Assembly: GCF_003008535.1 (NCBI RefSeq) | Contig: NZ_CP027666.1 | Location: 3,375,989-3,407,988, forward strand | Reading direction: 5' to 3' | Origin: Ottowia oryzae | GTDB taxonomy: Bacteria > Pseudomonadota > Gammaproteobacteria > Burkholderiales > Burkholderiaceae_C | DNA: 32,000 bases | Shown here: positions 2,915 to 27,314 of the stretch, piece after piece | Numbering within the stretch: position 1 is the stretch's first letter | Layout: every line of letters starts with the position of its first letter | Translations under genes and position numbers: made by a program | Notes under the pieces: generated by a model | Databases searched by the model: none | What the model saw: the letters and a program-made list of their open reading frames with translations, nothing else | Told to the model about the DNA's origin: nothing

Positions 2915-5900
2915 TGATGGCGAGCAGTGGGCCAGCCTCCACCGCATCGGCCATCGATTCGGCCAATGCTTCTGATTTGATAGCTGCCAGCGCTGGTGCA
3001 GCGGGCGCTGGCGACCCAAATGGCACTGAATCAACGCCGCCACCGCCACGCCGCCGCAGCGCCTGGCGCTGGGTGCTCTGGCTGCTGATCAGCCTGATCC
3101 TGCTGCTGGCGCTGGCGCTGGGCGGCCTGTGGGTGTGGGCGGGCAGCGAAGGGTCTCTGGCCACCGCGCTGCGCTGGGCGGGCGCGCAACAACCGCTGGT
3201 CACCGACGAAGTCACCGGCACGGTGCGCGGCGGCGGCAAGGTGCGGCGCCTGGTGTGGGACAAGGAAGGCTTGCGCGTCGAGGTGCAGAACGCCGAGCTG
3301 CTGTGGACGCCCGCTGCGCTGATGCACCGCACGCTGCAGATCGACCAGCTTTCGGCCAGCCGCATCGTGGTGGACGACCGGCGCCCCAAGGGCGAGGCAT
3401 CCAGCGGGCCGCCGAAGTCGCTGGCGCTGCCGCTGAAGATCGACGTGAAAGCCCTGCGCGCCGATGAGCTGCGCTGGGCCGGCCCACCGCCCTACTCGCT
3501 GCAAGACGTGGCGGGGCGCTTCAAGTACGACGGCCATCAGCACGCGCTGGTGCTGGACAGCGCGCAGATCGAGGGCGGCCGCTACAAGGCCCGCGCCAAC
3601 ATCACCGCGCGCGCCCCCATTCAGCTGGACGTGGCGCTGGCCGGCGCGCTCACGGCCCCGGTGCCCGGCGCGCAGGCGCCCGTGCCACTGACGCTGCAAG
3701 CCACGCTGAGCGGCCCACTGACCGACATGCAGGCGCGCGCCGACCTGCAAGCCGCGCCCGCGGCGCCGGGTGCGTCGGCCCCGGCGATTCCCGATCTGCC
3801 GGCGGCGCGCGGTGCGTCGGGCAAGGCCCCGCCTTCGTCAGCCGCCAGCAGCCCCGGCGCTGCCGCTTCCACGCCCGCCGCTGCCGCGCCATCGGCCGAC
3901 GCAGCCTCCGCACCGCAGGCCGGCGCATCCTCGGCCAACGCACGCGCAGACGCAAAACCCTCCGGCACCGCGGCCAGCGCGCCGCCGGGCGCCGCCCCCA
4001 GCGAAGTGCCCGAGGCGCATGCCACCGCCCGCATCACCCCCTGGCAAGCGCAGCCGCTGCCCGAAGCGCACGCCCGCGTGCGGGCGCTGGACGTGGGCGC
4101 CATCTGGGCGCAGGCGCCCCAAACGCATCTGACGGGCGAGCTGCACGTGCGCCCCATCGAAGGCGCATCGCCCGGCGCCACCTGCTGGGCGGTGGACGCC
4201 GACCTGACCAACCGTGGCGCCGGCCCCTGGGACCAGCACCGCCTGCCGGTCGAGCGGCTGCTGGCCGACCTGACCTGGCAGCACGGCGTGGCCACGGTGC
4301 GCTCACTCAAGGCCGACGTGGCCGGCGGCACACTGGAATCCACCGGCCGCTGGGCGCAAGCGCCTGCGCCCGCCAGCGCGGCTTCGGCCCCATCCGCCTC
4401 AGCCACACCACCTGCGACGGGCGCCAGCGCCCCGGCGGCCGCGTCCGGCTGGGCGCTGGATACGCGCGTTCAGGGCATCAACCCGGCCGCGCTGCACAAG
4501 CAGCTGGCGGCCTTCCCGATCGATGGCACGGCCAAAGTGCAGGGCGCGGCGGGCGGCATCGACTTTGACGTTCAGTTGCAGGCGCGAAGTACCCGTACCG
4601 CTGCGCCAGCGCGGCGCGGCGAATCGGCCGCGCAAGCGCTGGCCCGCGACCTGCGCGCCGTGCATCTGCGCGACGCCACCGCCACTGGCCGCTGGGCAGA
4701 TGGCGAACTGGCCTTGAACACGCTGCGTGTGCGCACCGACGAGGCCGAACTGGCCGGCAATGCCCACGTGCGCCCCGGCAGCGAGCCCGGCCCCGGCGGC
4801 CAGGCCGATCTGCGGCTGACCGCGCCTGGCACGCAAGCGCAGCTCAAAGGCGAGCTGCAGCCCAACACCGGCGCGGGCACGCTGCTGGTGCAGTTGCAAG
4901 ACGTCGCGCGCGCCCTGGCCTGGGCGCAAAAGCTGCCCGGCGCCAGCGACGCCTTGGCCGGCGCCAGCGCCCGGGGCAGCGCGCGCCTGGACGGCACCTG
5001 GCGTGGCGGCTGGCGCGACCCCAACATTCAGGCGCAGCTGACCGCACCCTCACTCAGCATGACGCCGCCGCGCAGCGCCAGCTCAGCCACGCCCATCCAA
5101 TTGCGCGCGCTGAATGCCAGCGTCAAAGGCCGTCTGGCGCAGGCTGACCTTGCTGTGCAAGGCGAGGTGACGCAGGGCGAGCGCCACCTGGACTTGCGGC
5201 TGGCTGCCAACGGCGGGCGCACCACGCCGCAGGCCACGCTGGCCGCCTCCAGCTGGCGCGCGCAGCTCACGCGCCTGCAAGCGGTGGTGCGCGACCCGGC
5301 CCTGGGCGAAGGCACCTGGCAGGCGGCCACCGAAGGCGCCGTGCCGCTCAGCTGGTCGCCCGCGCAAGGCGGCCAGTTCGAGGTGGGCGCGGGGGCGCTG
5401 GCCGTCACCTCGTCCGCTCCCGTTTCCCAGGCGCGCATCCAGTGGGGGCCGGCGCGCTGGCGCGGCGGCGAATTGACGACCACCGGGCGCATCACCGGCC
5501 TGCCGCTGGAATGGGCCGAGCGCGTGGCCGGCGCCCAGCTGCGCGCCGCGGGCGTCACCGGCGACGTGGTCTTCAACGGCGACTGGGACGCCACGCTGGG
5601 CCACGGCCTGCGCGTCAGCGCCAACCTCGCGCGCGCCAGGGGCGACATCGGCATCCTGACGACCGACCCGAGCACCGGCGTGCAGTCGCGCGTGGCCGCG
5701 GGCCTGCGCGACGCGCGGCTCAGCCTGACCAGCCAGGGCCAGGCGCTGCAGGCGCGCGTGGTGTGGGACAGCGAGCGCGCCGGCACCGTCACCGGCCAGC
5801 TGCGCACCGAACTGTCGGCCCAGCGCAGCGGCGAAGGCGCCACGCAGTGGTCTTGGCCTGAAGCGGCGCCGCTGCAGGGCGAGTTGCGGGCGCGCTTGCC

Positions 5901-7269
5901 GCAGATTTCGGCCTGGTCGGTACTGGCGCCGCCCGGCTGGCGGCTGCGCGGCTCGCTGGCGGCCGACCTGCGCATCAGCGGCACGCGCAGCGCGCCCCTG
6001 GTCAACGGCACGTTGAACGCCGACGACATGGCCATGCGCTCGGTGGTGGACGGCCTGCAGTTCGAGGGCGGGCGCCTGCGTGCGCGCCTGGACGGCACCC
6101 GCCTGCTGATCGACGAATTCGTGCTGCGCGGCGCGGGCAACCAGGACGGTGGCGGCCTGCTGCGCGCCACCGGGCAGGCCGGGCTGGTGGACGGGCGGCC
6201 GCAGGCGGTCCTGCGCGCCACGCTGGAACAGCTGCGCGCCAGCATCCGCGCCGACCGGCAGGTGACCGTGTCGGGCAACGTGACCGCGGCGCTGGACGGG
6301 CGCAGCGTGACCGCCGATGGCAAGCTGCGCGTGGACCGCGCCCGTATCGTGCTGCCCGACGAAAGCCGCCCCAGCCTGGGCGACGACGTGATCGTGCGGG
6401 GTGCGGGCGGCAAGGTGATGGCGGGCAAAGATGCGCCCGGCGCCGTGGCCAAGCCCACCAGCACCGCCGGCCAGCAAGAGGCCGCACGCGACGCGCGGGC
6501 CGCCAGCAGCCGCCAGCGCGCAGAAGCCAAGGCCAAGGAAAGCCGCGCCGAGCCGCTGACGGCCAAGGCCAACGTGCAGATCGACCTGGGCGACGACTTC
6601 CGCCTGTCCGGCATGGGCATCGACACGCGCCTGGCCGGGCAGCTGACCTTGGCCGCCGACGGCCCGCTGACGCAGCTGCCCACGCTGACCGGCCGCGTGC
6701 GCACGGTGGGTGGCACCTTCCGCGCGTACGGCCAGTTCCTCACCATTCAGCGCGGCTTCGTGGTCTTCAGCGGGCCCATCGACAACCCGGCGCTGGACAT
6801 CGTGGCGCTGCGGCCCAACTACACCAGCGACCAGCGCGTGGGCGTGCAGGTGATGGGCAGCGCGCTGCTGCCGCGCGTGCGCCTGTATTCCGAGCCCGCC
6901 CTGCCCGACAACCAGACCCTGGCCTGGCTGCTGCTGGGCCGCGCCGCCCCCGAATCGGGGGCCGAGGCGGCCATGCTGCAATCCGCCGCACTCGCCCTGC
7001 TGGGCGGGCGCGAAGGGCGCGGGCTGGCGGCCAACTTCGGCCTGGACGAGCTGAGCTTCTCCGGCGGCGAAGGCGGGTCGCTGCAAAGCGCCAGCGTCAC
7101 GCTGGGCAAGCGCCTGTCCGACAAGCTGTACGCGGCGTACGAACACAGCCTGGCGGGCGCCAGCGGCACGCTGATGATCTTCTACGAGCTGTCGCGCCGC
7201 TGGACACTGCGCGGCCAGGCGGGCGAAAACAGCGCGGTGGACTTGATCTTCCGGCTGAGCTTCGACTGA
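2914..7269 (+). CDS. tamB: translocation and assembly module protein TamB (DUF490 family)
   Basis: 1451 aa with a single N-terminal TM anchor (WRWVLWLLISLILLLALALGGLWVW) and a long beta-rich body. The conserved C-terminal DUF490-like region reads ...LSDKLYAAYEHSLAGASGTLMIFYELSRRWTLRGQAGENSAVDLIFRLSFD. It is coupled to tamA. Confidence 0.85.
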   Translation: MMASSGPASTASAIDSANASDLIAASAGAAGAGDPNGTESTPPPPRRRSAWRWVLWLLISLILLLALALGGLWVWAGSEGSLATALRWAGAQQPLVTDEVTGTVRGGGKVRRLVWDKEGLRVEVQNAELLWTPAALMHRTLQIDQLSASRIVVDDRRPKGEASSGPPKSLALPLKIDVKALRADELRWAGPPPYSLQDVAGRFKYDGHQHALVLDSAQIEGGRYKARANITARAPIQLDVALAGALTAPVPGAQAPVPLTLQATLSGPLTDMQARADLQAAPAAPGASAPAIPDLPAARGASGKAPPSSAASSPGAAASTPAAAAPSADAASAPQAGASSANARADAKPSGTAASAPPGAAPSEVPEAHATARITPWQAQPLPEAHARVRALDVGAIWAQAPQTHLTGELHVRPIEGASPGATCWAVDADLTNRGAGPWDQHRLPVERLLADLTWQHGVATVRSLKADVAGGTLESTGRWAQAPAPASAASAPSASATPPATGASAPAAASGWALDTRVQGINPAALHKQLAAFPIDGTAKVQGAAGGIDFDVQLQARSTRTAAPARRGESAAQALARDLRAVHLRDATATGRWADGELALNTLRVRTDEAELAGNAHVRPGSEPGPGGQADLRLTAPGTQAQLKGELQPNTGAGTLLVQLQDVARALAWAQKLPGASDALAGASARGSARLDGTWRGGWRDPNIQAQLTAPSLSMTPPRSASSATPIQLRALNASVKGRLAQADLAVQGEVTQGERHLDLRLAANGGRTTPQATLAASSWRAQLTRLQAVVRDPALGEGTWQAATEGAVPLSWSPAQGGQFEVGAGALAVTSSAPVSQARIQWGPARWRGGELTTTGRITGLPLEWAERVAGAQLRAAGVTGDVVFNGDWDATLGHGLRVSANLARARGDIGILTTDPSTGVQSRVAAGLRDARLSLTSQGQALQARVVWDSERAGTVTGQLRTELSAQRSGEGATQWSWPEAAPLQGELRARLPQISAWSVLAPPGWRLRGSLAADLRISGTRSAPLVNGTLNADDMAMRSVVDGLQFEGGRLRARLDGTRLLIDEFVLRGAGNQDGGGLLRATGQAGLVDGRPQAVLRATLEQLRASIRADRQVTVSGNVTAALDGRSVTADGKLRVDRARIVLPDESRPSLGDDVIVRGAGGKVMAGKDAPGAVAKPTSTAGQQEAARDARAASSRQRAEAKAKESRAEPLTAKANVQIDLGDDFRLSGMGIDTRLAGQLTLAADGPLTQLPTLTGRVRTVGGTFRAYGQFLTIQRGFVVFSGPIDNPALDIVALRPNYTSDQRVGVQVMGSALLPRVRLYSEPALPDNQTLAWLLLGRAAPESGAEAAMLQSAALALLGGREGRGLAANFGLDELSFSGGEGGSLQSASVTLGKRLSDKLYAAYEHSLAGASGTLMIFYELSRRWTLRGQAGENSAVDLIFRLSFD
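2975..3034 (+). repeat. REP-like repeat, copy B, embedded in the 5' coding region of tamB
   Basis: TTTGATAGCTGCCAGCGCTGGTGCAGCGGGCGCTGGCGAC...AAATGG is nearly identical over the core to copy D (16225). Confidence 0.7.
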
Positions 7270-7328
7270 GCTGCGGTTGATCGCCGGCGGGCGCAGCCGT
7301 ACAGACGCCGCGCCGGCCTGAAAACGAC

Positions 7329-7353
7329 AACAGGCAGCCATTGGCTGCCTGTT
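7329..7353 (-). terminator. stem-loop terminator downstream of tRNA-Arg, also placed after tamB
   Basis: 11-bp perfect stem AACAGGCAGCC/GGCTGCCTGTT with a 3-nt loop. On the minus strand it is followed by TGTCGTTTT. Confidence 0.5.
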
Positions 7354-7372
7354 CGTGCGAGGTGTCGCGTGA

Positions 7373-7447
7373 TGGTGTCCCCACCAGGAATCGAACCTGG
7401 ATCTGATTCTTAGGAGGAACCTGTTCTATCCATTGAACTACAGGGAC
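7373..7447 (-). tRNA. tRNA-Arg (anticodon CCT)
   Basis: Manual cloverleaf: GTCCCTG TA GTTC AATGGATA GAAC A GGTTC CTCCTAA GAATC AGAT CCAGG TTCGATT CCTGG TGGGGAC A CCA. 75 nt with encoded CCA. Confidence 0.9.
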
Positions 7448-7529
7448 GCGAGCCCGCAACTATAGCAGCGGGCCGCGCAATTGCGCCCCTCGCAAGACAC
7501 CCGCATGTCCAGCGCCGCCCTGCCTAAAG

Positions 7530-7982
7530 TTAGCCCTGCCGGTCCTTGATGGCCTGGGCGAAGCGCTGCAGCAGTTCAGGAAACGCGGCTTGATCGGCCG
7601 CCGGCCAGTCGGCCACCAGTTCGCCAAGCAATCGGCGCCGCGCCTGGGTGATGGCCTGCACCGTGCGCGCGCCCGCTTCGGTGATGGCGGCCGCCCTCAC
7701 CCGCATGTCCGCCTCGGACGAAGGCCGCTCGACCAGGCCAAGCCGCTCCAGCTTCGCGATCTGGCGGCTGACGGTTGAAGGGTCGCGCCCCGCCTTGTCG
7801 GCCAGCTGCGCCACGCCCATGGCGGGGGATGCGCTCAGCCGCACCAGCAGCGGGAACAGCGCCCTGTCCAGCGAGACGCCGGCGGCGCCCAGCAGCACTT
7901 CGTCCTGGCGCGGGCTGTTCAGCAAGCCCGTCAGCTCAATCAGCGCCGCCGCGATGGCGTCGACATTGCATGTATCGCGCAT
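7530..7982 (-). CDS. MarR family transcriptional regulator
   Basis: 150 aa. The winged-helix region ...GVAQLADKAGRDPSTVSRQIAKLERLGLVERPSSEADMRVRAAAITEAG is typical of MarR. It is divergent from the FMN reductase gene. Confidence 0.85.
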   Translation of the reverse strand: MRDTCNVDAIAAALIELTGLLNSPRQDEVLLGAAGVSLDRALFPLLVRLSASPAMGVAQLADKAGRDPSTVSRQIAKLERLGLVERPSSEADMRVRAAAITEAGARTVQAITQARRRLLGELVADWPAADQAAFPELLQRFAQAIKDRQG

Positions 7983-9352: not shown

Positions 9353-10020
9353 CGCTCCACCCCGCCCAGCGCGCGGGCGGCGATCACCGCCTCGGTGCGG
9401 TTGCGCGCCCGCAGCGCACGGAAGATGGCCGCCAGGTGGATCTTGACCGTGCCTTCGCTGATGCCCAGGCCGCGCGCGATTTCCTTGTTGGGCTGCCCGG
9501 CCGAAAGGTGCGACAGCACGTCCAGCTGGCGGTCGGTCAGCATGTGGCGCAGCTGCGCGATCGACGGGCTCAGCGCCACGGTGTACGGGTCCAGCGCCTC
9601 GTCGCTGGCGCGCTCGGTTGCCGGCGCCGTGCCCGGCATCAGCTGCCAAGGCAGGTAGGTGCCGCCGCCCAGCACCGTCTGCACCGCCATCAGCATGGCT
9701 TCGGGGCTGTGCGCCTTGGGGATGAAGCCTTGCGCGCCCGCCTCCATCGCGGCGCGCACCACGGCATCGTCCTGCGCGCCCGACAACACGATGATCTTCA
9801 GCCCCGGCCAGCGCCGGTGCGCCTCGCTGATGTGCTCCACCCCGCGTGCGCCGGGCATGCCCAGGTCGATCAGCGCCAGCGCCACGCTGGCGTCCAGCGC
9901 GTGGTGCAGCTCGTCCACCGAAAAGGCGGTGCAGACGGCCAGATCGGGCGTCAGCTCTTTCAGCTTGTCGGCGACGGCTTCGACGATCAGGCGGTGGTCA
10001 TCGGCGATAAGGATTTTCAT
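9319..10020 (-). CDS. two-component response regulator, NarL/FixJ (LuxR-type HTH) family
   Basis: Receiver domain MKILIADDHRLIVE...LALIDLGMPG...KIIVLSG plus a C-terminal LuxR HTH LTDRQLDVLSHLSAGQPNKEIARGLGISEGTVKIHL. Start chosen at the ATG (MKIL). No sensor kinase is adjacent. Confidence 0.85.
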   Translation of the reverse strand: MKILIADDHRLIVEAVADKLKELTPDLAVCTAFSVDELHHALDASVALALIDLGMPGARGVEHISEAHRRWPGLKIIVLSGAQDDAVVRAAMEAGAQGFIPKAHSPEAMLMAVQTVLGGGTYLPWQLMPGTAPATERASDEALDPYTVALSPSIAQLRHMLTDRQLDVLSHLSAGQPNKEIARGLGISEGTVKIHLAAIFRALRARNRTEAVIAARALGGVERLKENQRLAQV

Positions 10021-20626: not shown

Positions 20627-21514
20627 ATGCCTAAGCCCTACCAGGTCGATGTCGCCGTTTTTCCCGTCGCAGGGCTCGGCACGCGCTTTCTACCGGCCAC
20701 CAAGGCCAGCCCCAAAGAGATGCTGCCGGTGGTGGACAAGCCACTCATCCAATACGCGGTGGAAGAGGCCTACGCGGCCGGCGTGCGGCACATGGTGTTT
20801 GTCACAGGGCGCAGCAAGCGCGCCATCGAAGACCACTTCGACACCGCCTACGAGCTGGAAAGCGAGCTGGAAGCCGCTGGCAAATCCGCCCTGCTGAACA
20901 CCGTTCAGGCCGTGCAGCCTGCCGACATGGTGTGCACCTACGTGCGCCAGCCGCGCTCATTGGGGTTGGGGCACGCCGTGCTGTGCGCCGCGCACATCGT
21001 GGGCCAGCACCCGTTTGCGGTGCTGCTGGCGGATGACCTGATGGTCGGCCCGGCCAATGGCCTGCCGGTGCTGGCGCAAATGACCCGCGCTTACGAATCG
21101 CTGGGCCGTTCGGTACTGGCCGTGCAAGAGGTGCCGACCGACCAGGTCAGCCGCTACGGGATCGTGGCCGGCTCGCCTGCGGGCGAGCGGCTGATGAGCA
21201 TCGAGCGCATCGTCGAAAAACCCTCGCCTGCCGAAGCGCCTTCGCGCATGGGTGTTGCCGGGCGCTACATCCTCACCCCGCGCATCTTCGACGAACTGCG
21301 CGACCAGCCGCCCGGCGCTGGCGGCGAGATTCAGCTGACCGACGCCATCGCGCGCCTGATGGCCAAAGAGCGCGTTTACGCTTACCAGTACGAGGGCAAG
21401 CGCTACGATTGCGGTAGCAAAGAGGGCTTTCTGCAAGCCACGGTGGAACTGGCCCTGCAACACCCGCAGATGGGTGCGTCGTTCTGCGAATACCTGAAGT
21501 CCCTGGCACTCTGA
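20627..21514 (+). CDS. galU: UTP--glucose-1-phosphate uridylyltransferase
   Basis: [39 protein letters not shown]...[10 protein letters not shown]...LLADDL is the classic GalU signature. 295 aa. Confidence 0.95.
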
Positions 21515-21570
21515 TATTCATAGCTGCCAGCGCTTTTCCATCAAGCGCCAGAGGCCGATTTAACAAAAAA
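21514..21570 (+). repeat. REP-like repeat, copy E
   Basis: ATATTCATAGCTGCCAGCGCTTTTCCATCAAGCGCCAGAGGCCGATTTAACAAAAAA, immediately after the galU stop. Confidence 0.75.
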
Positions 21571-21579
21571 CTTCTGCAT

Positions 21580-21596
21580 GCGACACAGTTTGTCGC
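21580..21596. promoter_or_regulatory. inverted repeat just upstream of the SIR2-gene start (candidate operator or RNA hairpin)
   Basis: GCGACA-CAGTT-TGTCGC, ending 10 nt before the ATG at 21607. Confidence 0.25.
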
Positions 21597-21606
21597 TGCC
21601 CGGCCG

Positions 21607-22668
21607 ATGATGGCGGCCATGACCACCGAGACACCCTTCGAGGGCCGCGACGACCCGCTGTACCTGCGCGCGCGCCAGCTCGTGCTTTTCCGCCGCGCCC
21701 CCGGCATCGCCACGCTGCAACGCGCCCTGCGCATCGGCCACCAGCACGCCACCCGCCTGCGCGACGCCATGCGCGGCGACATCCTGAACTGCGACGAACA
21801 GGGTCACGGCTGGCACATCGCCGAAGGGGCCGGTGAAGGGCCCGACCTGCTGCTGCAAGACAAGCTCGCCCAGGCCGCCCACTGGATCAGCACCGCGCAA
21901 GCCATGGTCGTGGCCGCGGGCGCTGGCATGGGCATCGACTCCGGCCTGCGGTTTGGCAACATGGGCTCACCCGAGGCGTTCCAGCAGCGCCCCGCCGCTG
22001 TCTGGGGCGTCTACGGCCACCAGCTCAACCTGTACCGCGCCGCCACGCCCCACGCCGGGTTCGGCCTGCTCCACGCCTGGGGGCAGCGCATGCAGCAGGG
22101 CTGCTTCGTGTTCACCAGCAATATCGATGGGCACTTCCAGAAGGCGGGCTTCACGCCCGCCCGCGTGTACGAATGCCGCGGCTCCATCCACCGGCTGCAA
22201 TGCGCGGACAACTGCAAAGGCCCTATCTGGTCCACGACAGACCTGCGCCCGCAGGTGGATGAGGCCGCGTGCGAATGGCGGGGCGAGTTGCCAACCTGCC
22301 CCCGCTGCGGCGCGCTGGCGCGGCCCAACATCCTCATGGCCGACGACTGGCAATGGAATGCAACGCGCAGCGCCCAGCAGCGCATGCTGCTCGACATGTG
22401 GCTGGACAGCGTCCAGGCCCCGCTGGTGCTGGAGATCGGCGCGGGCCGCGCCGTGCCCACGGTGCGCAACTTCACCCGGCGCATGCAGTTGCGCGGCAGC
22501 CGGCTGATCCGCATCAACCTGCACGAGGCGAACATCCACAACCCCAGGGACATTGAACTGGCGCTGGGGGCAAAGCAAGCGCTGCAAGCCCTGGAGGCGC
22601 ACCTGGTCAGCCAGGGCTCGACGAATCACAGCAAGGAAAAAGCAGATGGCGATGCACCCAGAATTTGA
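21607..22668 (+). CDS. FtsK-gamma-like winged-helix domain fused to a SIR2 (sirtuin) family domain
   Basis: The N-terminus DPLYLRARQLVLFRRAPGIATLQRALRIGHQHATRLRDAMRGDIL parallels E. coli FtsK-gamma DPLFDQAVQFV...ASISGVQRQFRIGYNRAARIIEQM. The SIR2 motifs are VVAAGAGMGIDSGL, FVFTSNIDGHFQKAG, a Zn ribbon QCADNC...CPRCG, RPNILMADD and LVLEIGAG. Confidence 0.7.
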   Translation: MMAAMTTETPFEGRDDPLYLRARQLVLFRRAPGIATLQRALRIGHQHATRLRDAMRGDILNCDEQGHGWHIAEGAGEGPDLLLQDKLAQAAHWISTAQAMVVAAGAGMGIDSGLRFGNMGSPEAFQQRPAAVWGVYGHQLNLYRAATPHAGFGLLHAWGQRMQQGCFVFTSNIDGHFQKAGFTPARVYECRGSIHRLQCADNCKGPIWSTTDLRPQVDEAACEWRGELPTCPRCGALARPNILMADDWQWNATRSAQQRMLLDMWLDSVQAPLVLEIGAGRAVPTVRNFTRRMQLRGSRLIRINLHEANIHNPRDIELALGAKQALQALEAHLVSQGSTNHSKEKADGDAPRI

Positions 22669-23383
22669 AACATGGGCCCAGTCCTATGCAGGCTGCGACG
22701 GCGGCGACATCGGCAGCCCCGAGCGGCGCGCCATCTGGCTGTGCGGCATCGAGTGGGGCGGCGCCCGCACCGCCGGGCAACTGCAGGCCGAAATGCAGCG
22801 CGGCGAACCCCGCCCGCGCGGGGGCTACGGCAATGCGTCGGACAACCTGGGCTACATCTTCAACCGGCAGGCCATGAAGATACTGTCTGCCATCCATGGC
22901 ACCCAGGTGTCTGGATACCGCGATTTCTGCGAACAGGCAAAACCCTTCACCCAAGGCTCGTCAGGGTATTTCAAGATGAACCTGTACCCCATCGCCTTCA
23001 AGGACACGAACCAGGCCCGGTGGCATGCAGATTTCGCGCAAGCGACCGGGTTTGAAGAGAAGTCCGGCTACATCGAATGGTGCAGACAACTCCGTTTCCC
23101 CCAGATGCGCCAATGGGCCGCAGCGGCGCGGCCCAAGCTGATTCTGTGCCTTGGCAAGAGCTACCGCGACGATTTTCACAAGGCGTTTTGCGACGAAAAC
23201 ACCCGCTTGACCCACGACCCCCCCATCGACGGCCGCGACCTGTGGTGGGGCGTCAACCGTGACGGCATCCTGGTCGCCATCATCCCTTTCATGGTCAACC
23301 GCCATGGTCTGACCCGCAACGAGAGCATCCAGAAATTCGGCGACCGGATCGCCCAACTGATGGAGCAGCATGGCTGCCGGTAA
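22646..23383 (+). CDS. hypothetical protein (245 aa) with weak UDG/MUG-superfamily-like motifs
   Basis: The ATG is preceded by AAGGA at ~8 nt and overlaps the SIR2 gene by 23 nt. The frame has a good coding signal but uses several rare A/T-ending codons (ATA, AGA, TCT, CGT). Motifs are IWLCGIEWGG, KLILCLGKS and IIPFMVNRHGLTR. Confidence 0.6.
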   Translation: MAMHPEFETWAQSYAGCDGGDIGSPERRAIWLCGIEWGGARTAGQLQAEMQRGEPRPRGGYGNASDNLGYIFNRQAMKILSAIHGTQVSGYRDFCEQAKPFTQGSSGYFKMNLYPIAFKDTNQARWHADFAQATGFEEKSGYIEWCRQLRFPQMRQWAAAARPKLILCLGKSYRDDFHKAFCDENTRLTHDPPIDGRDLWWGVNRDGILVAIIPFMVNRHGLTRNESIQKFGDRIAQLMEQHGCR

Positions 23384-24230
23384 AAGCAGCCTGCGCATCA
23401 CGGCCTTCCAGCAGGCCATGCACCCTGCCGCGCTGCGCCATGCCCGCCCGGCGCCGCAGCAGGACGCGCTGGCGCTCCATACGCTGGACGAGCGCCACGT
23501 CCGGCAAGCGCCACTGGGCCGATGGGCCTGCGCCGCGCCCGGCGGCGTGGCGTGGGTGTCCGTGGCCGATGGCGTGGCGTCCAGCCCCTGCGCCGACCTG
23601 GCCAGCCGCAGCTTTTTGCAGGTGCTGCACCGCGCCAGCCCGGCCGCCGCCCGGCAACTGCCGGGCCTGGTGCGCCATGCGCGGCTCGACTGGCGCGCCC
23701 GCTACCTGAAGCCCCGCACCCGTGGCGCGGCCTGCACGCTGGCGAGCCTGCTGGTGGCCGACGGGCAGGTGTGCGCCGTCAACAGCGGCGATGCGCGCAT
23801 CTGGCGCCTGCGCCCACAGGCCGATGGCAGCGTGCAATGGCGGCAGCTCAGCCGCGACCATACGGCGTGGCAGCAGATGCTGGACGACGGCGAAGCGGAT
23901 GCCGCCCAGGCGGACGCCTACGCTTCGATCTACCAGGGCCTGCTGCACTGCCTGGTGCTGGACGCCGACGACGATCTGGACGAAGACGCCGACGAAAGCG
24001 CCGCACAGGAGGACGACTGGCTGCACATCTGGCACGGGCAGGCCGCGCTGGGCGATGCCTATCTGCTGGCCACCGATGGCCTGCACGGCGTGCTGACCGA
24101 TGCGCAGATGCAGGCCCTCTGGCAGGTGGCCGACGCGCCGCCAGGCAAGTTGCAGGCACTGCACGACGCGTACCGGCGGGCCGGGGCACAGGATGACGTC
24201 TCGGTGGTTCTGCTGGACATTGGTGCATAG
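23370..24230 (+). CDS. PP2C-family (PPM) serine/threonine protein phosphatase
   Basis: PPM motifs appear in order: VSVADGVASS, ACTLASLLVADGQVCAVNSGDARIW, LSRDHT, YLLATDGLHGVLTD, AQDDVSVVLLDI. GGAG lies 7 nt upstream of the ATG. The start overlaps the previous gene by 14 nt. Confidence 0.75.
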   Translation: MAAGKSSLRITAFQQAMHPAALRHARPAPQQDALALHTLDERHVRQAPLGRWACAAPGGVAWVSVADGVASSPCADLASRSFLQVLHRASPAAARQLPGLVRHARLDWRARYLKPRTRGAACTLASLLVADGQVCAVNSGDARIWRLRPQADGSVQWRQLSRDHTAWQQMLDDGEADAAQADAYASIYQGLLHCLVLDADDDLDEDADESAAQEDDWLHIWHGQAALGDAYLLATDGLHGVLTDAQMQALWQVADAPPGKLQALHDAYRRAGAQDDVSVVLLDIGA

Positions 24231-24244
24231 CGCTGCCGCATCGA

Positions 24245-24300
24245 ATTTGATAGCTGCCGACGCTTTCCAGACAAGGGATACAGCCTTAATTTGCTTGAAG
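24245..24300 (+). repeat. REP-like repeat, copy F (degenerate)
   Basis: ATTTGATAGCTGCCGACGCTTTCCAGACAAGGGATACAGCCTTAATTTGCTTGAAG, in the 151-bp gap between the PP2C and WYL genes. Confidence 0.6.
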
Positions 24301-24381
24301 CCATCCTGGCGCAACCATGCGGAAGATGACACCCCATGACACCCGGAGAATCCCCTGCCCAGCCCGTGCGAGACTGAAGCG

Positions 24382-25383
24382 ATGCCCCAACGCCCCGACA
24401 CCCTCGAAAGCGTCCTGCTCGCCGTGGAACTGCTGCGCCGCATCCCGCGCGGGCGCAAGATCACCGCCGCCGAACTGCACCGGCAACTCAAGGACGCGGG
24501 CATGGAGCGTACCGAGCGCACCATCCAGCGCCAGTTGGAAATGCTCTCGCGCCATTTCGAGATTGAGCGCGACGAGCGCAGCAAGCCCTACGGCTACCGC
24601 TGGCTGGAGCGCGCCCAACACCTGGCCGTGCCCCACCTCACGCCGCACGAATCGCTGCTGCTGCAACTGGCCGAGGAGCACCTGAAACACCTGCTGCCCA
24701 CGCGGCTGATGCAGTCCATGGACGGCTTCTTTGCCCAGGCCCGCCGCAATCTGGGCGACGATAGCCAGGGCCACAACGTGCGCCTGGCCCGTGAATGGCC
24801 GCGCAAGGTGCGCGTGGTTGCCACCAGCCAGCCGCTGCTGCCGCCCTCCATCGCCCCCGGCGTGCTGGAAGCCGTGAGCGACGCGCTGTACGGCAACCGC
24901 TGGCTGGAGCTGGACTACCAGAACGCCGCAGGCAAACGAAAGCCGGTCAAGGTCATGCCCCTGGGCCTGGCCCAGCAAGGCCCTCGCCTGTACCTGGTGT
25001 GCCGGTATGAGGGTTTTGGCAACGAACGCAGCCTGGCGCTGCACCGCGTCCGCAAGGCGCAGGCGTCCACGCTGGCTTTTGAGCGGCCTGCGGATTTCGA
25101 CTTGCAGAAGTACGACGACGACGGACGCTTTGGGTTTGGCGAAGGGGAGCGGGTGCAGCTCACGTTCTGCATTGAAAACGAGGCTGGCTTTCACCTGCGT
25201 GAAACGCCTTTGTCCCAGGACCAGCAGGTGCGCGATTGCGGAGATGGGTGGATGGAAGTCACCGCCACGGTCGTGGACAGCGCCATGCTGCAATGGTGGC
25301 TGCGGGGGTTTGGAGAGTCCGTGCGCGAGGTCAACAGCAAGCCAGCGCAGCCACTGCGCACCACGACGCTCCTAAACAAATAG
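24382..25383 (+). CDS. WYL domain-containing transcriptional regulator (HTH-WYL-WCX architecture, BrxR/CapW/PafBC-like)
   Basis: N-terminal wHTH LLAVELLRRIPRGRKITAAELHRQLKDAGMERTERTIQRQLEML. Central WYL-type segment NRWLELDYQNAAGKRKPVKVMPLGLAQQGPRLYLVCRYEGF...LALHRV. A C-terminal extension follows. Confidence 0.8.
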   Translation: MPQRPDTLESVLLAVELLRRIPRGRKITAAELHRQLKDAGMERTERTIQRQLEMLSRHFEIERDERSKPYGYRWLERAQHLAVPHLTPHESLLLQLAEEHLKHLLPTRLMQSMDGFFAQARRNLGDDSQGHNVRLAREWPRKVRVVATSQPLLPPSIAPGVLEAVSDALYGNRWLELDYQNAAGKRKPVKVMPLGLAQQGPRLYLVCRYEGFGNERSLALHRVRKAQASTLAFERPADFDLQKYDDDGRFGFGEGERVQLTFCIENEAGFHLRETPLSQDQQVRDCGDGWMEVTATVVDSAMLQWWLRGFGESVREVNSKPAQPLRTTTLLNK

Positions 25384-25430
25384 CTGCCAGCGCTTGCTAA
25401 ATAAGCACCAGCAGCCAGTTTGGCTTCAAC
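25378..25430 (+). repeat. REP-like repeat, copy G
   Basis: AAATAGCTGCCAGCGCTTGCTAAATAAGCACCAGCAGCCAGTTTGGCTTCAACC. The TAG of the core is the stop codon of the WYL gene. Confidence 0.7.
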
Positions 25431-25431
25431 C

Positions 25432-25659
25432 TCAACGCCGCCGCAGCACGTGCGTGTATTCGTCGCCCGCGCTCTGCTGCTCGACCAGGCCGTGGCCGGT
25501 TTGCTTGCAAAAGGCCTGAAAGTCGCGCACCGACCCCGGATCGGTGCACACCACCTTCAGCAGCTGCCCGCTTTCGATCTCTGCCAGCGCCTTCTTGGCC
25601 TTGAGGATGGGCAGCGGGCAATTCATGCCGCGCGCATCCACTTCCTTTGCGATGTCCAT
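25432..25659 (-). CDS. sulfurtransferase TusA family protein
   Basis: 75 aa. MDIAKEVDARGMNCPLPILKAKKALAEIESGQLLKVVCTDPGSVRDF contains the CPxP active-site motif of the TusA/SirA family. It uses only the 3' part of the listed 25432..25857 ORF. Confidence 0.85.
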   Translation of the reverse strand: MDIAKEVDARGMNCPLPILKAKKALAEIESGQLLKVVCTDPGSVRDFQAFCKQTGHGLVEQQSAGDEYTHVLRRR

Positions 25660-25673
25660 GGGGCGATTGTCGA

Positions 25674-26222
25674 TCAATCCAGCCCGCGGCGCCGCTCGGC
25701 GTTTTCTTCCTCGGTGAAGAACACCGGCTCGTGCCCGCGCGTGCGCAGCCAGTCGGCCAACGCATAGCCTGTGCCCGCGGGCCAGCACTTGAGTTCGTCC
25801 AGCGCGCAAAGGCGCCAATCCACCAACTCGGGCGACAGGCGCACATCGCCTTCGCACACGGCGTGGTAGGCGATGATGACTTGGTTCATGCGCAGGAATT
25901 CGTATGCGCCCACCAGCTTCAAGCCGCGCACATCCAGGTTGGTTTCTTCCTTGACTTCGCGCGCCACGCCTTCCAGCGGCGATTCACCCGCCTCCATGAA
26001 GCCGGTGATCAAGCCAAACATCTTGGGCGGCCACGCCGCGTTGCGCGCCAACAGCACCTTGCCTTGGTATTCGACGATGGCCGCCAGCACCGGCGTGGGG
26101 TTGTTCCAGTGCGTGAAGCCGCAGGCCGGGCAGCGCAGCCGCTCTTTCCAGCCGCCGTCTTCCAGGGAGGGCAGCAGCTCCAGCGGCGTGGCGCATTGCG
26201 GGCAGAAGCGGAATTCGTTCAT
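25674..26222 (-). CDS. NUDIX hydrolase with N-terminal zinc ribbon
   Basis: CPQC...CPAC zinc ribbon plus the NUDIX box GFMEAGESPLEGVAREVKEETNL. 182 aa. Confidence 0.85.
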   Translation of the reverse strand: MNEFRFCPQCATPLELLPSLEDGGWKERLRCPACGFTHWNNPTPVLAAIVEYQGKVLLARNAAWPPKMFGLITGFMEAGESPLEGVAREVKEETNLDVRGLKLVGAYEFLRMNQVIIAYHAVCEGDVRLSPELVDWRLCALDELKCWPAGTGYALADWLRTRGHEPVFFTEEENAERRRGLD

Positions 26223-27227: not shown

Positions 27228-27314
27228 GCCCGGGTGGCGAAATCGGTAGACGCAGCAGATTCAAAATCTGCCGGTGGCAACACCGTGCCGGTTCGATTCC
27301 GGCTCCGGGCACCA
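27228..27314 (+). tRNA. tRNA-Leu (anticodon CAA)
   Basis: Type II tRNA: GCCCGGG TG GCG AAATCGGTAGA CGC A GCAGA TTCAAAA TCTGC, long variable arm CGGTGGCAACACCGT, GCCGG TTCGATT CCGGC TCCGGGC A CCA. 87 nt. Confidence 0.9.

What the first reader, a model, noticed from the sequence alone, without database searches (positions are those of the whole stretch)
21607..25383. Four-gene module wHTH-SIR2 / orphan / PP2C / WYL regulator between galU and tusA-like: candidate undescribed conflict or DNA-associated system
Four co-directional genes sit between core genes galU (ends 21514) and the tusA-like/NUDIX/cysM block (from 25432):
1. a 353-aa FtsK-gamma-like winged helix fused to a SIR2 domain
2. a 245-aa protein with no family I can name confidently
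3. a 286-aa PP2C phosphatase
4. a 333-aa HTH-WYL regulator

Genes 1-3 overlap. The start at 22646 lies 23 nt inside gene 1, and the start at 23370 lies 14 nt inside gene 2. Both starts have AAGGA/GGAG ribosome-binding sites, which implies translational coupling and a functional unit.

REP-like repeats bracket and punctuate the module (21514, 24245, 25378, 26229). Gene 2 uses rare A/T-ending codons (ATA, AGA, TCT, CGT) that the neighbouring genes largely avoid. This hints at foreign origin.

SIR2 domains (Thoeris ThsA, DSR1/DSR2, SIR2-HerA, SIR2-associated short pAgo) and WYL regulators (BrxR, CapW) recur in anti-phage systems. WYL proteins such as DriD and PafBC also sense DNA damage. I do not recognise this exact combination as any named system.
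Basis: partly seen in the sequence, partly recalled or inferred. Interest (0 to 1): 0.85.

Follow-up and report, generated by a model that had tools for sequence, protein, structure and literature searches.

The report
DNA-damage regulon island beside galU
The four genes are a real unit, most likely switched on by DNA damage: a DriD/DdaA-type WYL regulator sits beside a three-gene operon (a sirtuin that looks catalytically dead here, a new uracil-DNA-glycosylase-fold protein and a PP2C phosphatase) that carries this regulator family's operator in its promoter, and nothing marks it as a known anti-phage system.

Summary
The four genes, their overlaps and their domains are real.

**What it is**
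- The "orphan" gene 2 has a uracil-DNA-glycosylase (UDG) superfamily fold.
- Gene 4 is a wHTH-WYL-WCX regulator. DriD is its only solved relative.
- One 15-bp palindrome, CGACACAGTTTGTCG (21581-21595), lies 10 nt upstream of a -10 hexamer in front of gene 1. It matches the published DdaA and DriD operators.
- The same operator-plus-(-10) promoter precedes SIR2, the UDG-like gene, PP2C, a double AAA+ ATPase, a DUF2779 nuclease, WYL and small unknown genes in about 20 other loci. It also precedes an unlinked PP2C.
- A weight matrix trained only on other loci scores the window site at 36 bits. The best shuffle scores 15.

**Best reading**
- The module is a local regulon of a DriD/DdaA-type activator, probably induced by single-stranded DNA or DNA damage.
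- It sits in a conserved island between galU and tusA whose inner genes turn over.

**Against a defence system**
- No PADLOC system matches.
- The SIR2 is a zinc-ribbon sirtuin. In this genome it has lost the cofactor loop and the catalytic His.
- Neighbours of gene 2 elsewhere are mostly housekeeping genes.
- The REP-like repeats occur throughout the window, and the codon-usage signal is weak.

What the operon's products do remains unknown.

The parts
21580..21596 (+). WYL operator: palindrome GCGACAC-AGT-TTGTCGC. Its core CGACA-N5-TGTCG matches the DdaA consensus CGWCA-N5-TGWCG and the DriD consensus CGAC-N7-GTCG. It lies where a -35 element would be.
   Evidence: It is the only exact CGAC-N7-GTCG match in the window. 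A weight matrix trained on 23 promoters from other loci scores 21578-21613 at 36.4 bits. The best of 30 shuffles scores 15.3 and the next independent site 13.3. The same box lies upstream of SIR2 orthologues in L001, L004, L005, L075, L086, L088, L091, L095 and L098. The consensus sequences are quoted from PMC12392091.
21606..21611 (+). Predicted -10 hexamer GATGAT, 10 nt downstream of the operator. No -35 hexamer is present.
   Evidence: An nAnnAT hexamer sits at the same spacing in all aligned SIR2 promoters, with the A and T invariant. It is also present in most of the other box promoters. The sigma-70 consensus scan finds no complete promoter in 21400-25600. DriD-dependent promoters have this layout (PMC13004042).
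21619..22668 (+). Gene 1: an FtsK-gamma-like winged helix fused to a zinc-ribbon sirtuin (SIR2) domain. The ORF opens at 21607, but the likely start is 21619, which would give a nearly leaderless mRNA. In this genome a 22-residue cofactor-loop segment (LPDFRG...) is deleted and the HG catalytic His is Arg (ECRGS).
   Evidence: Pfam, NCBIfam and PDB matches. AlphaFold2 model with pLDDT 86.5, whose best fold matches are SirTM, Mfs1, SIRT5, Sir2Af2 and CobB. The deletion and the His-to-Arg change are seen against 21 homologues, and the 90%-identical P0121 shares them. dN/dS is 0.33-0.53.
22646..23383 (+). Gene 2: a 245-aa protein with a UDG-superfamily fold, from a small family with no Pfam model. 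It overlaps gene 1 by 23 nt. Invariant motifs are GIEWGG after strand 1, FKMNLYP, and PFMVNRxGL after the last strand.
   Evidence: AlphaFold2 model with pLDDT 93.2. Foldseek against the PDB gives TDG, UdgX, family-4 UDG and MUG at probability about 1, E about 1e-4 and TM 0.4-0.5. Invariant columns are listed. The family has 673 representatives at E<=1e-3 among 1.84 billion. FtsK_gamma is fused to it in at least 6 clusters.
23370..24230 (+). Gene 3: a divergent PP2C-type phosphatase from a narrow Comamonadaceae subfamily, with an acidic insertion. It overlaps gene 2 by 14 nt.
   Evidence: Pfam PP2C_2 scores 22.2 bits (cutoff 24) and NCBIfam Stp1 gives 2.7e-14. The alignment to PstP (1TXO) keeps ADG, GDxR, TDGL and DD. 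Only about 80 clusters are more than 40% identical.
24239..24291 (.). REP-like dispersed intergenic element between genes 3 and 4. It occupies the place where C. koreensis has a WYL box in front of its WYL gene.
   Evidence: Repeat family D1. The core occurs 10 times in the window. L075 has a box at 9662 upstream of its WYL gene, and the window has none there.
24382..25383 (+). Gene 4: a wHTH-WYL-WCX transcription factor, closest among solved structures to Caulobacter DriD. It is the presumed activator of the promoter at 21580-21611.
   Evidence: Pfam WYL and WCX. The only PDB sequence matches are five DriD chain sequences at E about 1e-4, with the Tyr of the WYL motif and the residue equivalent to DriD R204 conserved. 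There is no BrxR or CapW signature. WYL genes are adjacent to gene 2 homologues in 13 loci.
21509..21561 (.). REP-like element directly after the galU stop codon. It is not specific to the module.
25369..25421 (.). REP-like hairpin element between gene 4 and the convergent tusA-like gene. On the minus strand it looks like a terminator.

Best explanation
The locus is a local regulon of a DriD/DdaA-family WYL transcription factor. It sits in a long-lived chromosomal island between galU and tusA.

**Proposed mechanism, step by step**
1. *Shown from sequence.* Gene 4 encodes a wHTH-WYL-WCX regulator. A single operator of this regulator family's type lies over the -35 position of a promoter that has a -10 hexamer but no -35. 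That promoter sits directly in front of the overlapping genes 1-2-3.
2. *Inferred by analogy with DriD, DdaA and PafBC.* Single-stranded DNA produced by DNA damage, or possibly by phage replication, binds the WYL domain. The dimer then binds the operator, recruits RNA polymerase, and switches on a nearly leaderless gene 1-2-3 transcript.
3. *Inferred from folds and motifs.* The products act on DNA or on DNA-bound proteins.
   - Gene 2 is a UDG-fold enzyme that probably excises a damaged or modified base.
   - Gene 3 is a PP2C phosphatase.
   - Gene 1 is a DNA-binding sirtuin. In relatives it is probably an NAD-dependent deacylase, and in one Methylotenera locus a Zn-dependent HDAC takes its place.
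   - In this genome the sirtuin has lost its cofactor loop and catalytic His, so it probably keeps only a DNA-binding or scaffolding role.
4. *Shown by comparison.* Other members of the same regulon carry their own copy of the promoter and come and go between genomes. They include a double AAA+ ATPase, a DUF2779 nuclease, small unknown proteins and a HAD phosphatase. The Ottowia island is a reduced version.
For: **Regulator type**
- WYL and WCX domains are present, and DriD is the only solved relative.

**Operator**
- CGACACAGTTTGTCG at 21581 is the only such site in the window. It fits the published consensus sequences for DdaA and DriD.
- The box, a 10-nt spacer and an nAnnAT -10 are conserved in front of SIR2 orthologues.
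- The same layout precedes u153, gene 2, PP2C, the double AAA+ ATPase (AAA2), DUF2779, WYL and further genes.
- A weight matrix trained without the window scores the window site at 36.4 bits, against a shuffle maximum of 15.3.
- Held-out hits of at least 22 bits all lie directly upstream of module-family genes. They are in L091, L095 (two), L097, L042, L074 and L098 (two).
- Three shuffles of 1.05 Mb gave no hit.
- An unlinked PP2C in Vandammella carries the box.
- No sigma-70 consensus promoter is found, which fits dependence on an activator.
- DriD binds over the -35 position at a fixed distance from the -10.

**Operon**
- The overlaps and ribosome-binding sites are confirmed.

**Synteny**
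- Comamonadaceae AAW (L004) has the fullest form: galU, SIR2, gene 2, PP2C, AAA2, DUF2779, WYL.
- L054 and L060 are rearranged but still linked.
- L095 and L098 lie in the same galU-to-tusA-NUDIX interval.

**Folds**
-.

**Selection**
- All four genes are under purifying selection, with dN/dS 0.13-0.34 against C. koreensis.

**Literature**
- The DdaA paper notes that DdaA homologues outside Moraxellaceae appear to regulate neighbouring genes of unknown function.
Against: - No experiment links gene 4 to the box. The inducing signal and the direction of control, activation or repression, rest on analogy.
- The PDB match to DriD is weak (E about 1e-4, C-terminal half only). Only some of DriD's ssDNA-contact residues are conserved.
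- If translation really starts at 21607, the box and the -10 would lie at the start codon and would suit repression better.
- The window has no box in front of gene 4.
- L054 and L060 keep the genes but have no box scoring at least 18 bits.
- The biochemical roles of genes 1-3 are inferred from fold alone.
- GmrSD-type restriction genes recur inside or beside the island in L095, L098 and L088, and beside a wHTH-gene 2 fusion in L079. In C. koreensis the module lies among defence-like genes. A defence role for the operon's genes is therefore not excluded.
Confidence: 0.6

Rival explanations
1. It is an anti-phage defence system under WYL control, comparable to BrxR- or CapW-regulated systems. 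On this reading the UDG-fold protein attacks modified phage DNA as Brig1 and Brig2 do, SIR2 acts as an NAD-consuming or modifying effector, and PP2C acts as a modulator. Phage replication intermediates would induce it.
For: - Solo UDG-like proteins can be antiviral, as Brig1 and Brig2 are.
- DdaA-type regulators also control defence genes.
- In C. koreensis the module lies between NERD-UvrD and HNH genes on one side and a DEAD/ResIII helicase, an ImmA-HTH pair and a SAVED gene on the other.
- GmrSD-family genes lie inside or next to the island in L095, L098 and L088, and next to a wHTH-gene 2 fusion in L079.
- Gene 2 is patchily distributed, and in Alcanivorax it lies in an integrative-element-like region.
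Against: - No PADLOC model hits gene 1 or gene 2. Gene 3 has only a weak partial hit, to PDC-M21C at 2e-4.
- The SIR2 is a zinc-ribbon sirtuin. No defence SIR2 appears among its sequence matches or its top 50 fold matches.
- In the window the SIR2 has lost its cofactor loop and catalytic His.
- The WYL protein matches DriD and lacks BrxR domains.
- The promoter lacks a -35 element, which is the activator-type layout.
- The two nearest genes on each side of gene 2 in 34 other loci are mostly housekeeping. Only WYL and WCX recur, and defence genes are not enriched.
- The GmrSD genes have no box.
- The island sits at a conserved chromosomal position in several genera.
- Gene 2 is absent from the phage collection and has one hit among 2.9 million viral contigs.
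Confidence: 0.2
2. The four genes are neighbours without a common function. They would be unrelated genes that accumulated in a variable spot downstream of galU.
For: - Each gene also occurs alone: gene 2 in most of the 74 loci, wHTH-SIR2 alone in L086, SIR2 alone in L090, and PP2C alone in L097.
- The island's content differs between genomes.
Against: - Genes 1-3 overlap and share one promoter.
- The same gene families recur together in different orders and orientations.
- They carry the same operator and promoter even when unlinked.
- The FtsK-gamma wHTH is fused to SIR2 in some genomes and to gene 2 in others.
Confidence: 0.08
3. In this genome the module is a decaying remnant. The island has lost AAA2, DUF2779 and u153, and the sirtuin is catalytically dead, so the Ottowia copy may no longer perform the ancestral function. 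This rival concerns present-day function only and is compatible with the regulon reading.
For: - The sirtuin has a 22-residue deletion of the conserved LPDFRG loop and its catalytic His is Arg.
- Related lineages show independent decay: His to Leu and GAG to GEG in L001 and L006, and a degenerate loop in L086.
- u153 is split in L095.
- Gene 1 has the highest dN/dS of the four genes against C. koreensis, 0.33, and 0.53 against its closest relative.
- A REP element replaces the box upstream of the WYL gene.
Against: - All four ORFs are intact and under purifying selection.
- The deletion is shared with a homologue that has diverged by 10% while keeping the frame.
- The promoter scores as well as any other in the set.
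- Gene 1 also evolves fast in a pair of genomes where it is intact, with dN/dS 0.40.
Confidence: 0.3

Closest known systems
DriD regulon of Caulobacter crescentus (SOS-independent DNA damage response)
   Same: - The regulator has the same wHTH-WYL-WCX build, and DriD is its best solved match.
- The operator is a CGAC-N7-GTCG palindrome.
- The operator lies over the -35 position at a fixed distance from a -10, and the promoters lack a -35.
   Different: - The target genes differ. DriD controls didA, bapE, recJ, dnaG and an uncharacterised operon (CCNA_03891/CCNA_01149). Here the targets are SIR2, a UDG-like protein and PP2C, with AAA+ and DUF2779 in relatives.
- The targets here are clustered next to the regulator.
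- Sequence similarity is low (E about 1e-4).
- Nothing here has been tested experimentally.
DdaA regulon of Moraxellaceae (WYL activator of DNA damage response and defence genes)
   Same: - The operator consensus CGWCA-N5-TGWCG is matched exactly by CGACA-CAGTT-TGTCG.
- The DdaA paper reports homologues outside Moraxellaceae that seem to regulate adjacent genes of unknown function. That is the situation here.
   Different: - DdaA became a global regulator that replaced LexA. Here the regulon looks local.
- I could not compare gene 4 with the DdaA sequence itself.
- The genes under control are different.
Defence SIR2 systems (Thoeris ThsA, DSR1/DSR2, SIR2-HerA, SIR2-associated short pAgo)
   Same: - A SIR2 domain is present.
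- In some genomes defence genes lie nearby.
   Different: - No partner protein (TIR, HerA or pAgo) is present.
- No PADLOC hit was found.
- The SIR2 is of the zinc-ribbon sirtuin type, closest to SirTM, SIRT5 and CobB.
- The catalytic His and the cofactor loop are lost in the window.
Class M sirtuins (SirTM, ADP-ribosyltransferases linked to macrodomains)
   Same: - They are the best fold match (5a3a at 3.9e-13, and 8rsn).
- The window protein, like SirTM, lacks the HG histidine.
   Different: - SirTM has QG. The gene 1 family has HG and the window has RG.
- There is no macrodomain, GcvH-L or LplA2 neighbour.
- SIRT5 and Sir2Af2 match almost equally well.
UDG superfamily glycosylases, including the antiviral Brig1 and Brig2
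   Same: - The predicted fold is the same.
- Conserved motifs sit where UDG motifs A and B lie.
- It is often a solo gene with a patchy distribution.
   Different: - It has no sequence-level match to any UDG family or Pfam model.
- The structural match is modest (TM 0.4-0.5).
- Here it is embedded in a WYL-controlled operon with a sirtuin and a phosphatase.
- Distant relatives in Ralstonia and Cupriavidus are annotated as transcriptional regulators, so an enzymatic role is not certain.
BrxR/CapW WYL repressors of defence systems
   Same: - Both are WYL regulators encoded next to the genes they control.
- Both are thought to sense ssDNA.
   Different: - Gene 4 has no WHD_BrxR or BrxR_CTD domains.
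- It has no PDB sequence match to BrxR or CapW at E<=1.
- The promoter layout suggests activation rather than repression.

Membership tests
DriD/DdaA-type WYL regulon | Regulator with wHTH, WYL and WCX domains | tested here: met
   Pfam WYL at 8e-10 and WCX at 3e-8. The N-terminal HTH has only weak hits. Architecture as described in PMC12392091.
DriD/DdaA-type WYL regulon | Regulator more closely related to DriD or DdaA than to BrxR, CapW or PafBC | tested here: inconclusive
   The only PDB sequence matches at E<=1 that are WYL proteins are five DriD chain sequences, at E about 1e-4. No tree was built and no DdaA sequence was available.
DriD/DdaA-type WYL regulon | Palindromic operator CGWCA-N5-TGWCG or CGAC-N7-GTCG in target promoters | tested here: met
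   One exact site at 21581-21595. The matrix score is 36.4 bits against a shuffle maximum of 15.3. The site is conserved upstream of orthologues and other regulon genes.
DriD/DdaA-type WYL regulon | Operator over the -35 position at a fixed distance from a -10, with no recognisable -35 | tested here: met
   A 10-nt spacer to an nAnnAT hexamer in nearly all instances. No full sigma-70 promoter was found. The layout is described in PMC13004042.
DriD/DdaA-type WYL regulon | ssDNA binding by the WYL domain and induction by DNA damage | not testable with these tools
   Only partial conservation of DriD's ssDNA-contact residues can be read from the alignment. Equivalents of Y168, Y192 and R204 are kept, and those of S172, R178, K202 and W206 are not (residues).
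Defence SIR2 systems (Thoeris, DSR, SIR2-HerA, SPARSA) | Match to the system's protein models and presence of the partner gene (ThsB/TIR, HerA, pAgo) | tested here: not met
   No PADLOC hit for gene 1 at E<=0.1. No such partner is present in the window or in orthologous loci.
Defence SIR2 systems (Thoeris, DSR, SIR2-HerA, SPARSA) | Catalytically competent SIR2 (Asn and His) able to consume NAD+ | tested here: not met
   In the window the His is Arg and the LPDFRG cofactor loop is deleted. The Asn of the TSNID motif is kept.
Canonical sirtuin deacylases (CobB/SIRT5-like) | Rossmann GAG motif, NID motif and a four-Cys zinc ribbon | tested here: met
   GAGMGIDSG, TSNIDG, and C199, C203, C231 and C234 are conserved. 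The fold matches SIRT5, Sir2Af2 and CobB at E about 1e-11.
Canonical sirtuin deacylases (CobB/SIRT5-like) | HG catalytic histidine and an intact cofactor-binding loop | tested here: not met
   The window has ECRGS and a 22-residue deletion. Most family members have ECHGS and LPDFRG. NCBIfam scores are far below the cutoffs, 96 bits against 243.
Class M sirtuins (SirTM) | QG in place of HG, and linkage to a macrodomain gene | tested here: not met
   The family has HG and the window has RG. No macrodomain is present in any locus. The definition comes from PMC4518038.
UDG superfamily | UDG alpha/beta fold | tested here: met
   AlphaFold2 model with pLDDT 93.2. Foldseek probability is about 1 to TDG, UdgX, family-4 UDG and MUG, with E 2e-4 to 5e-3 and TM 0.4-0.5.
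UDG superfamily | Sequence membership in a described UDG family (families 1-6, UdgX, Brig1) | tested here: not met
   No Pfam, NCBIfam or PADLOC hit. I did not compare it directly with the Brig1 or Brig2 sequences.
UDG superfamily | DNA glycosylase activity | not testable with these tools
   The invariant E36 (GIEWGG), N112 (FKMNLYP) and N218 (MVNRxGL) sit where UDG motif A, the base-recognition Asn and motif B lie. This is inferred from the secondary structure and is not measured.
PP2C (PPM) phosphatases | Match to PPM models with conserved metal-binding aspartates | tested here: inconclusive
   Pfam PP2C_2 scores 22.2 bits, under the cutoff of 24. Stp1 scores 53 bits against 230. The alignment to PstP keeps ADG, GDxR, TDGL and DD, but DGxGG is ADGVAS.
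BrxR/CapW defence repressors | WHD_BrxR or BrxR_CTD domains, or similarity to CapW or BrxR | tested here: not met
   Pfam does not report these domains for gene 4, although it does for an unrelated WYL protein in L083. There is no PDB match.

The most novel reading that the evidence does not exclude
The SIR2 or HDAC deacylase, the PP2C or HAD phosphatase, the UDG-fold protein, the double AAA+ ATPase and the DUF2779 nuclease may together form an undescribed ssDNA-triggered pathway. In it, an FtsK-gamma-like winged helix, fused to the sirtuin in some genomes and to the UDG-fold protein in others, would bring modification-removing and base-excising enzymes to chromosomal or invading DNA. The pathway could be a new damage-tolerance route, or a damage- and phage-induced defence against modified DNA that works alongside GmrSD.
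Probability: 0.25. Interest if true: 0.75.

Novelty: new variant of a known kind. Interest (0 to 1): 0.55.

Why it matters
WYL regulators of the DriD, DdaA and PafBC type are emerging as a second, LexA-independent way for bacteria to respond to DNA damage. Outside a few model species their targets are unknown.

This locus and about 20 related ones give a clean, sequence-defined operator and promoter. They also give a recurring set of target genes: a sirtuin or HDAC, a new UDG-fold family, PP2C, a double AAA+ ATPase and a DUF2779 nuclease. None of these has been characterised.

The case is directly testable:
- one regulator, one box and one operon in Ottowia;
- fuller versions in Comamonas, Diaphorobacter and Acidovorax.

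It also warns against annotating by association. SIR2 plus WYL does not by itself indicate phage defence.

Tried and rejected
- **PADLOC models on all four proteins.** No system was found.
- **Named systems in the literature.** I searched for the SIR2, PP2C, WYL and glycosylase combination, for DUF2779, and for FtsK gamma with SIR2. Nothing relevant came up.
- **Phage origin of gene 2.** There was no hit in 50,697 phage records and one hit in IMG/VR.
- **REP elements as module borders.** Rejected, because the element occurs 10 times in the window.
- **Codon usage or GC content as evidence of foreign origin.** Rejected as marginal.
- **SirTM membership of gene 1.** Rejected on the HG/QG motif and the lack of a macrodomain.
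- **dN/dS as a test of pseudogenisation of gene 1.** Inconclusive. The values are 0.33-0.53, and an intact pair also reaches 0.40.
- **Defence enrichment around gene 2 homologues.** Not found.
- **Second box in front of gene 4 or elsewhere in the window.** None.
- **Rfam scan of 20-28 kb.** It found only a tRNA.
- **Look-up of the TusA-like protein to find relatives lacking the island.** It failed because no exact match is on record.
- **Supplementary data of the DdaA paper.** Not held.
- **Box promoters in front of the GmrSD genes.** None.

Full report
**1. The observation**

The four co-directional ORFs are present at 21607-22668, 22646-23383, 23370-24230 and 24382-25383.
- Gene 2 starts 23 nt inside gene 1, behind AAGGA. 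Gene 3 starts 14 nt inside gene 2, behind GGAG.
- The domain calls hold:
  - SIR2 and a sub-threshold FtsK_gamma in gene 1;
  - a weak PP2C in gene 3;
  - WYL and WCX in gene 4;
  - nothing for gene 2.
- The flanks are valS, a 2-hydroxyacid dehydrogenase and galU on the left, and a TusA-like gene, NUDIX and cysM on the right.
- Gene 2 is 100% identical to a hypothetical protein of Ottowia oryzae, in the Comamonadaceae.

Two supporting details of the finding are weaker than stated.
- The REP-like element is real, but its core occurs 10 times in the 32-kb window. It is a dispersed intergenic hairpin and not a border of the module.
- Gene 2's GC3 is 0.80, hardly different from galU at 0.81. Only six of its 246 codons are ATA, AGA, TCT or CGT.

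**2. The proteins**

*Gene 2* gives a confident AlphaFold2 model (pLDDT 93.2).
- The model matches thymine-DNA glycosylase, UdgX, family-4 UDG and MUG, with probability about 1, E about 1e-4 and TM 0.4-0.5.
- The family is very well conserved internally. Invariant motifs are GIEWGG after the first core strand, FKMNLYP, and PFMVNRxGL after the last strand.
- By position these motifs correspond to UDG motif A, the base-recognition Asn and motif B. That correspondence is my inference.
- The family is small: 673 representatives at E<=1e-3 among 1.84 billion.
- In at least six clusters, an FtsK-gamma winged helix is fused to its N-terminus. This is the same domain that is fused to SIR2 in the window.

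*Gene 1* models well (pLDDT 86.5).
- Its fold matches SirTM, Mfs1, SIRT5, Sir2Af2 and CobB. No defence SIR2 appears in the top 50 or among the sequence matches.
- Its family keeps the GAG, NID and HG motifs and four zinc-ribbon cysteines.
- The window protein and its 90%-identical relative P0121 lack a 22-residue stretch that holds the conserved LPDFRG cofactor loop. They also have Arg in place of the catalytic His, reading ECRGS.
- Other lineages show independent degeneration.
- The gene is still under purifying selection, with dN/dS 0.33-0.53. It is the fastest-evolving of the four against C. koreensis, and that also holds where it is intact.

*Gene 3* belongs to a narrow Comamonadaceae PP2C subfamily. 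It keeps the aspartate motifs that align to PstP and has an acidic insertion.

*Gene 4* has DriD as its only solved relative. It has no BrxR or CapW signature.

**3. Synteny**

A scan of one genome per species found 74 loci with gene 2 homologues.
- They are spread patchily over Proteobacteria: Comamonadaceae, Campylobacter, Neisseria, Pasteurellaceae, Moraxella, Halomonadaceae, Alcanivorax and others.
- Most are solo genes.
- The recurrent neighbours are:
  - WYL, in 13 loci;
  - a DUF2779 nuclease, in 11;
  - SIR2, in 9;
  - a double AAA+ ATPase (AAA2), in 8;
  - PP2C, in 7.
- The fullest arrangement is in Comamonadaceae AAW: galU, wHTH-SIR2, gene 2, PP2C, AAA2, DUF2779, WYL.
- In L054 and L060 the genes are rearranged but still linked.

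The same interval is occupied in relatives.
- A close unnamed metagenomic relative (L095) has galU, SIR2, a split u153, gene 2, PP2C, two GmrSD genes, WYL, TusA, NUDIX and CysM.
- Diaphorobacter (L098) has valS, galU, wHTH-SIR2, a 155-aa gene, PP2C, AAA2, DUF2779, WYL, GmrSD, then TusA and NUDIX, with no gene 2.
- Acidovorax HDW3 shares the left flank and has SIR2, PP2C and AAA2.
- In C. koreensis the module lies elsewhere, among defence-like genes.

The island between galU and tusA is therefore old and chromosomally anchored, and its content turns over.

**4. The unifying feature: a WYL operator and promoter**

The DdaA paper gives the operators as CGWCA-N5-TGWCG for DdaA and CGAC-N7-GTCG for DriD.
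- The window contains exactly one such site, CGACACAGTTTGTCG at 21581-21595, just upstream of gene 1.
- The same box lies directly upstream of SIR2 orthologues in every lineage examined.
- It also lies upstream of u153, gene 2 (where gene 2 is first in its unit), PP2C, AAA2, DUF2779 and WYL. Further genes carry it too, among them an HDAC-family deacetylase, an SHS2-domain protein and DUF6847.
- In nearly all cases the box is followed, after 10 nt, by an nAnnAT -10 hexamer.

The statistics are clear.
- A weight matrix built from 23 promoters of other loci scores the window site at 36.4 bits. The shuffle maximum is 15.3 and the next independent site in the window scores 13.3.
- Across 1.05 Mb of loci there are 31 hits of at least 22 bits. 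Three shuffles gave none.
- Every held-out hit lies in front of a module-family gene. One of these is an unlinked PP2C in Vandammella.
- No complete sigma-70 promoter is found in the region.

This is the architecture shown by cryo-EM for DriD: the operator over the -35 position, a fixed distance to the -10, and no -35 hexamer.

In the window the -10 (GATGAT, 21606-21611) overlaps ATG 21607 and ATG 21610. The conserved 'MTTETP' start at 21619 is therefore the likely start codon, and the mRNA would be nearly leaderless. The C. koreensis orthologue was independently called at the equivalent ATG.

**5. Interpretation**

The best-supported reading has two levels of support.
- *Shown from sequence and comparison.* Gene 4 is a DriD/DdaA-type WYL regulator, and genes 1-3 are its local target operon. 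The operator, the promoter layout, the operon structure and the recurrent co-occurrence are all observed.
- *Inferred.* Induction by ssDNA, activation rather than repression, and the biochemical roles of the three products are inferred.

Three observations bear on those roles.
- An HDAC-family deacetylase replaces SIR2 in a Methylotenera locus. A CobB-like SIR2 stands under the same box in Polaromonas. Both suggest that the ancestral role of gene 1 is deacylation and not NAD depletion.
- The wHTH shifts between SIR2 and the UDG-fold protein, which suggests that both act at DNA.
- The Ottowia sirtuin is probably a pseudoenzyme.

**6. The defence alternative**

It is not excluded.
- UDG-like proteins can be antiviral.
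- DdaA also controls defence genes.
- GmrSD genes recur in or beside the island.

Several results argue against it.
- No defence model matches.
- The SIR2 type and its state are wrong for an NADase effector.
- The regulator and promoter are of the activator type.
- The island is chromosomally anchored.
- The nearest neighbours of gene 2 in 34 other loci are mostly housekeeping genes.
- The GmrSD genes carry no box.

**7. Novelty**

- The regulatory principle is known from DriD and DdaA.
- The DdaA authors already remarked that homologues outside Moraxellaceae seem to regulate adjacent genes of unknown function.
- What I did not find described is this defined regulon and island: its promoter, its recurrent gene set, the UDG-fold family and the wHTH-sirtuin.
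- I rate it a new variant of a known kind, of moderate interest.

Noticed in passing
window 2980, 9302, 14395, 16231, 21520, 24250, 25380, 26235, 27543, 29608: A dispersed REP-like intergenic element with core ATAGCTGCYDRCGC occurs 10 times in 32 kb, against 0.2 expected. It usually lies just after stop codons. The copy at 25381-25417 forms a 15-bp hairpin that looks like a terminator for the tusA-like gene.
   Followed up: partly
window 27228-27311 (+): A tRNA gene (Rfam RF00005, 54.9 bits) lies between cysM and the next gene, about 1.8 kb downstream of the module. I did not determine the anticodon.
   Followed up: no
L021:6568-7452 and L021:7498-7956; L050:6442-6912 and 6967-7893: In two Methylotenera loci the WYL-box promoter drives other genes ahead of the gene 2 homologue. 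In L021 these are an HDAC-family deacetylase (PF00850, 1.5e-31) and a 152-aa protein with an FtsA-type SHS2 domain. In L050 they are the SHS2 protein and a DnaB_C-like ATPase. The HDAC takes the place of SIR2.
   Followed up: partly
L088:13881-14657; L098:19762-20322 (-): FtsZ/tubulin-like fragments lie inside or beside the island: a 258-aa protein with a weak FtsZ_C hit, and a 186-aa protein with a Tubulin-family hit. Together with the SHS2_FtsA proteins they hint at a link to cell division, as with DidA in the DriD regulon.
   Followed up: no
L095:4992-9085; L098:17251-19524; L088:14738-14876; L079:2358-3512: GmrSD-family genes (type IV restriction of modified DNA) recur inside or next to the island, and next to an FtsK-gamma-gene 2 fusion. 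None has a WYL-box promoter.
   Followed up: partly
L092:4959-5765 (Cupriavidus pinatubonensis plasmid p2); L093:3656-4576 (Ralstonia solanacearum megaplasmid): Distant relatives of gene 2 (23-27% identity, E 1e-6 to 3e-5) are annotated as 'transcriptional regulator' and sit next to exopolysaccharide biosynthesis genes. From memory the Ralstonia gene resembles xpsR in position, but I did not verify this. The fold family may include non-enzymatic DNA binders.
   Followed up: partly
window 21619-25383 versus L075: Synonymous divergence between Ottowia and C. koreensis is uneven across the module: dS 0.39 for gene 1, 0.99 for gene 2, 0.61 for gene 3 and 1.02 for gene 4. This suggests recombination or a mosaic origin within the operon.
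   Followed up: no
L090:4642-6455: In Rugamonas a solo SIR2 of the same family, without the wHTH, lies next to an AAA_15/AAA_21 ATPase and a DUF4276 protein. From memory this pair resembles the PARIS defence system. No WYL box is present there.
   Followed up: no
L086:7001-9745: A wHTH-SIR2 with a degenerate cofactor loop and a WYL-box promoter stands alone next to hrpA. It is followed by a 145-aa unknown gene that also occurs after gene 2 in L001 and L006. A lexA gene lies about 1 kb downstream.
   Followed up: partly
window 25674-26222 (-): The NUDIX gene next to the module has a zinc ribbon and its best NCBIfam match is NAD+ diphosphatase NudC (1.3e-19, below the cutoff). It belongs to the conserved right flank, so it is probably unrelated to the SIR2 gene.
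   Followed up: no
window 3500-6500: This stretch has unusually high G+C (0.74-0.78 against about 0.66 elsewhere). It lies within a 1451-aa ORF (2914-7269) that I did not examine.
   Followed up: no
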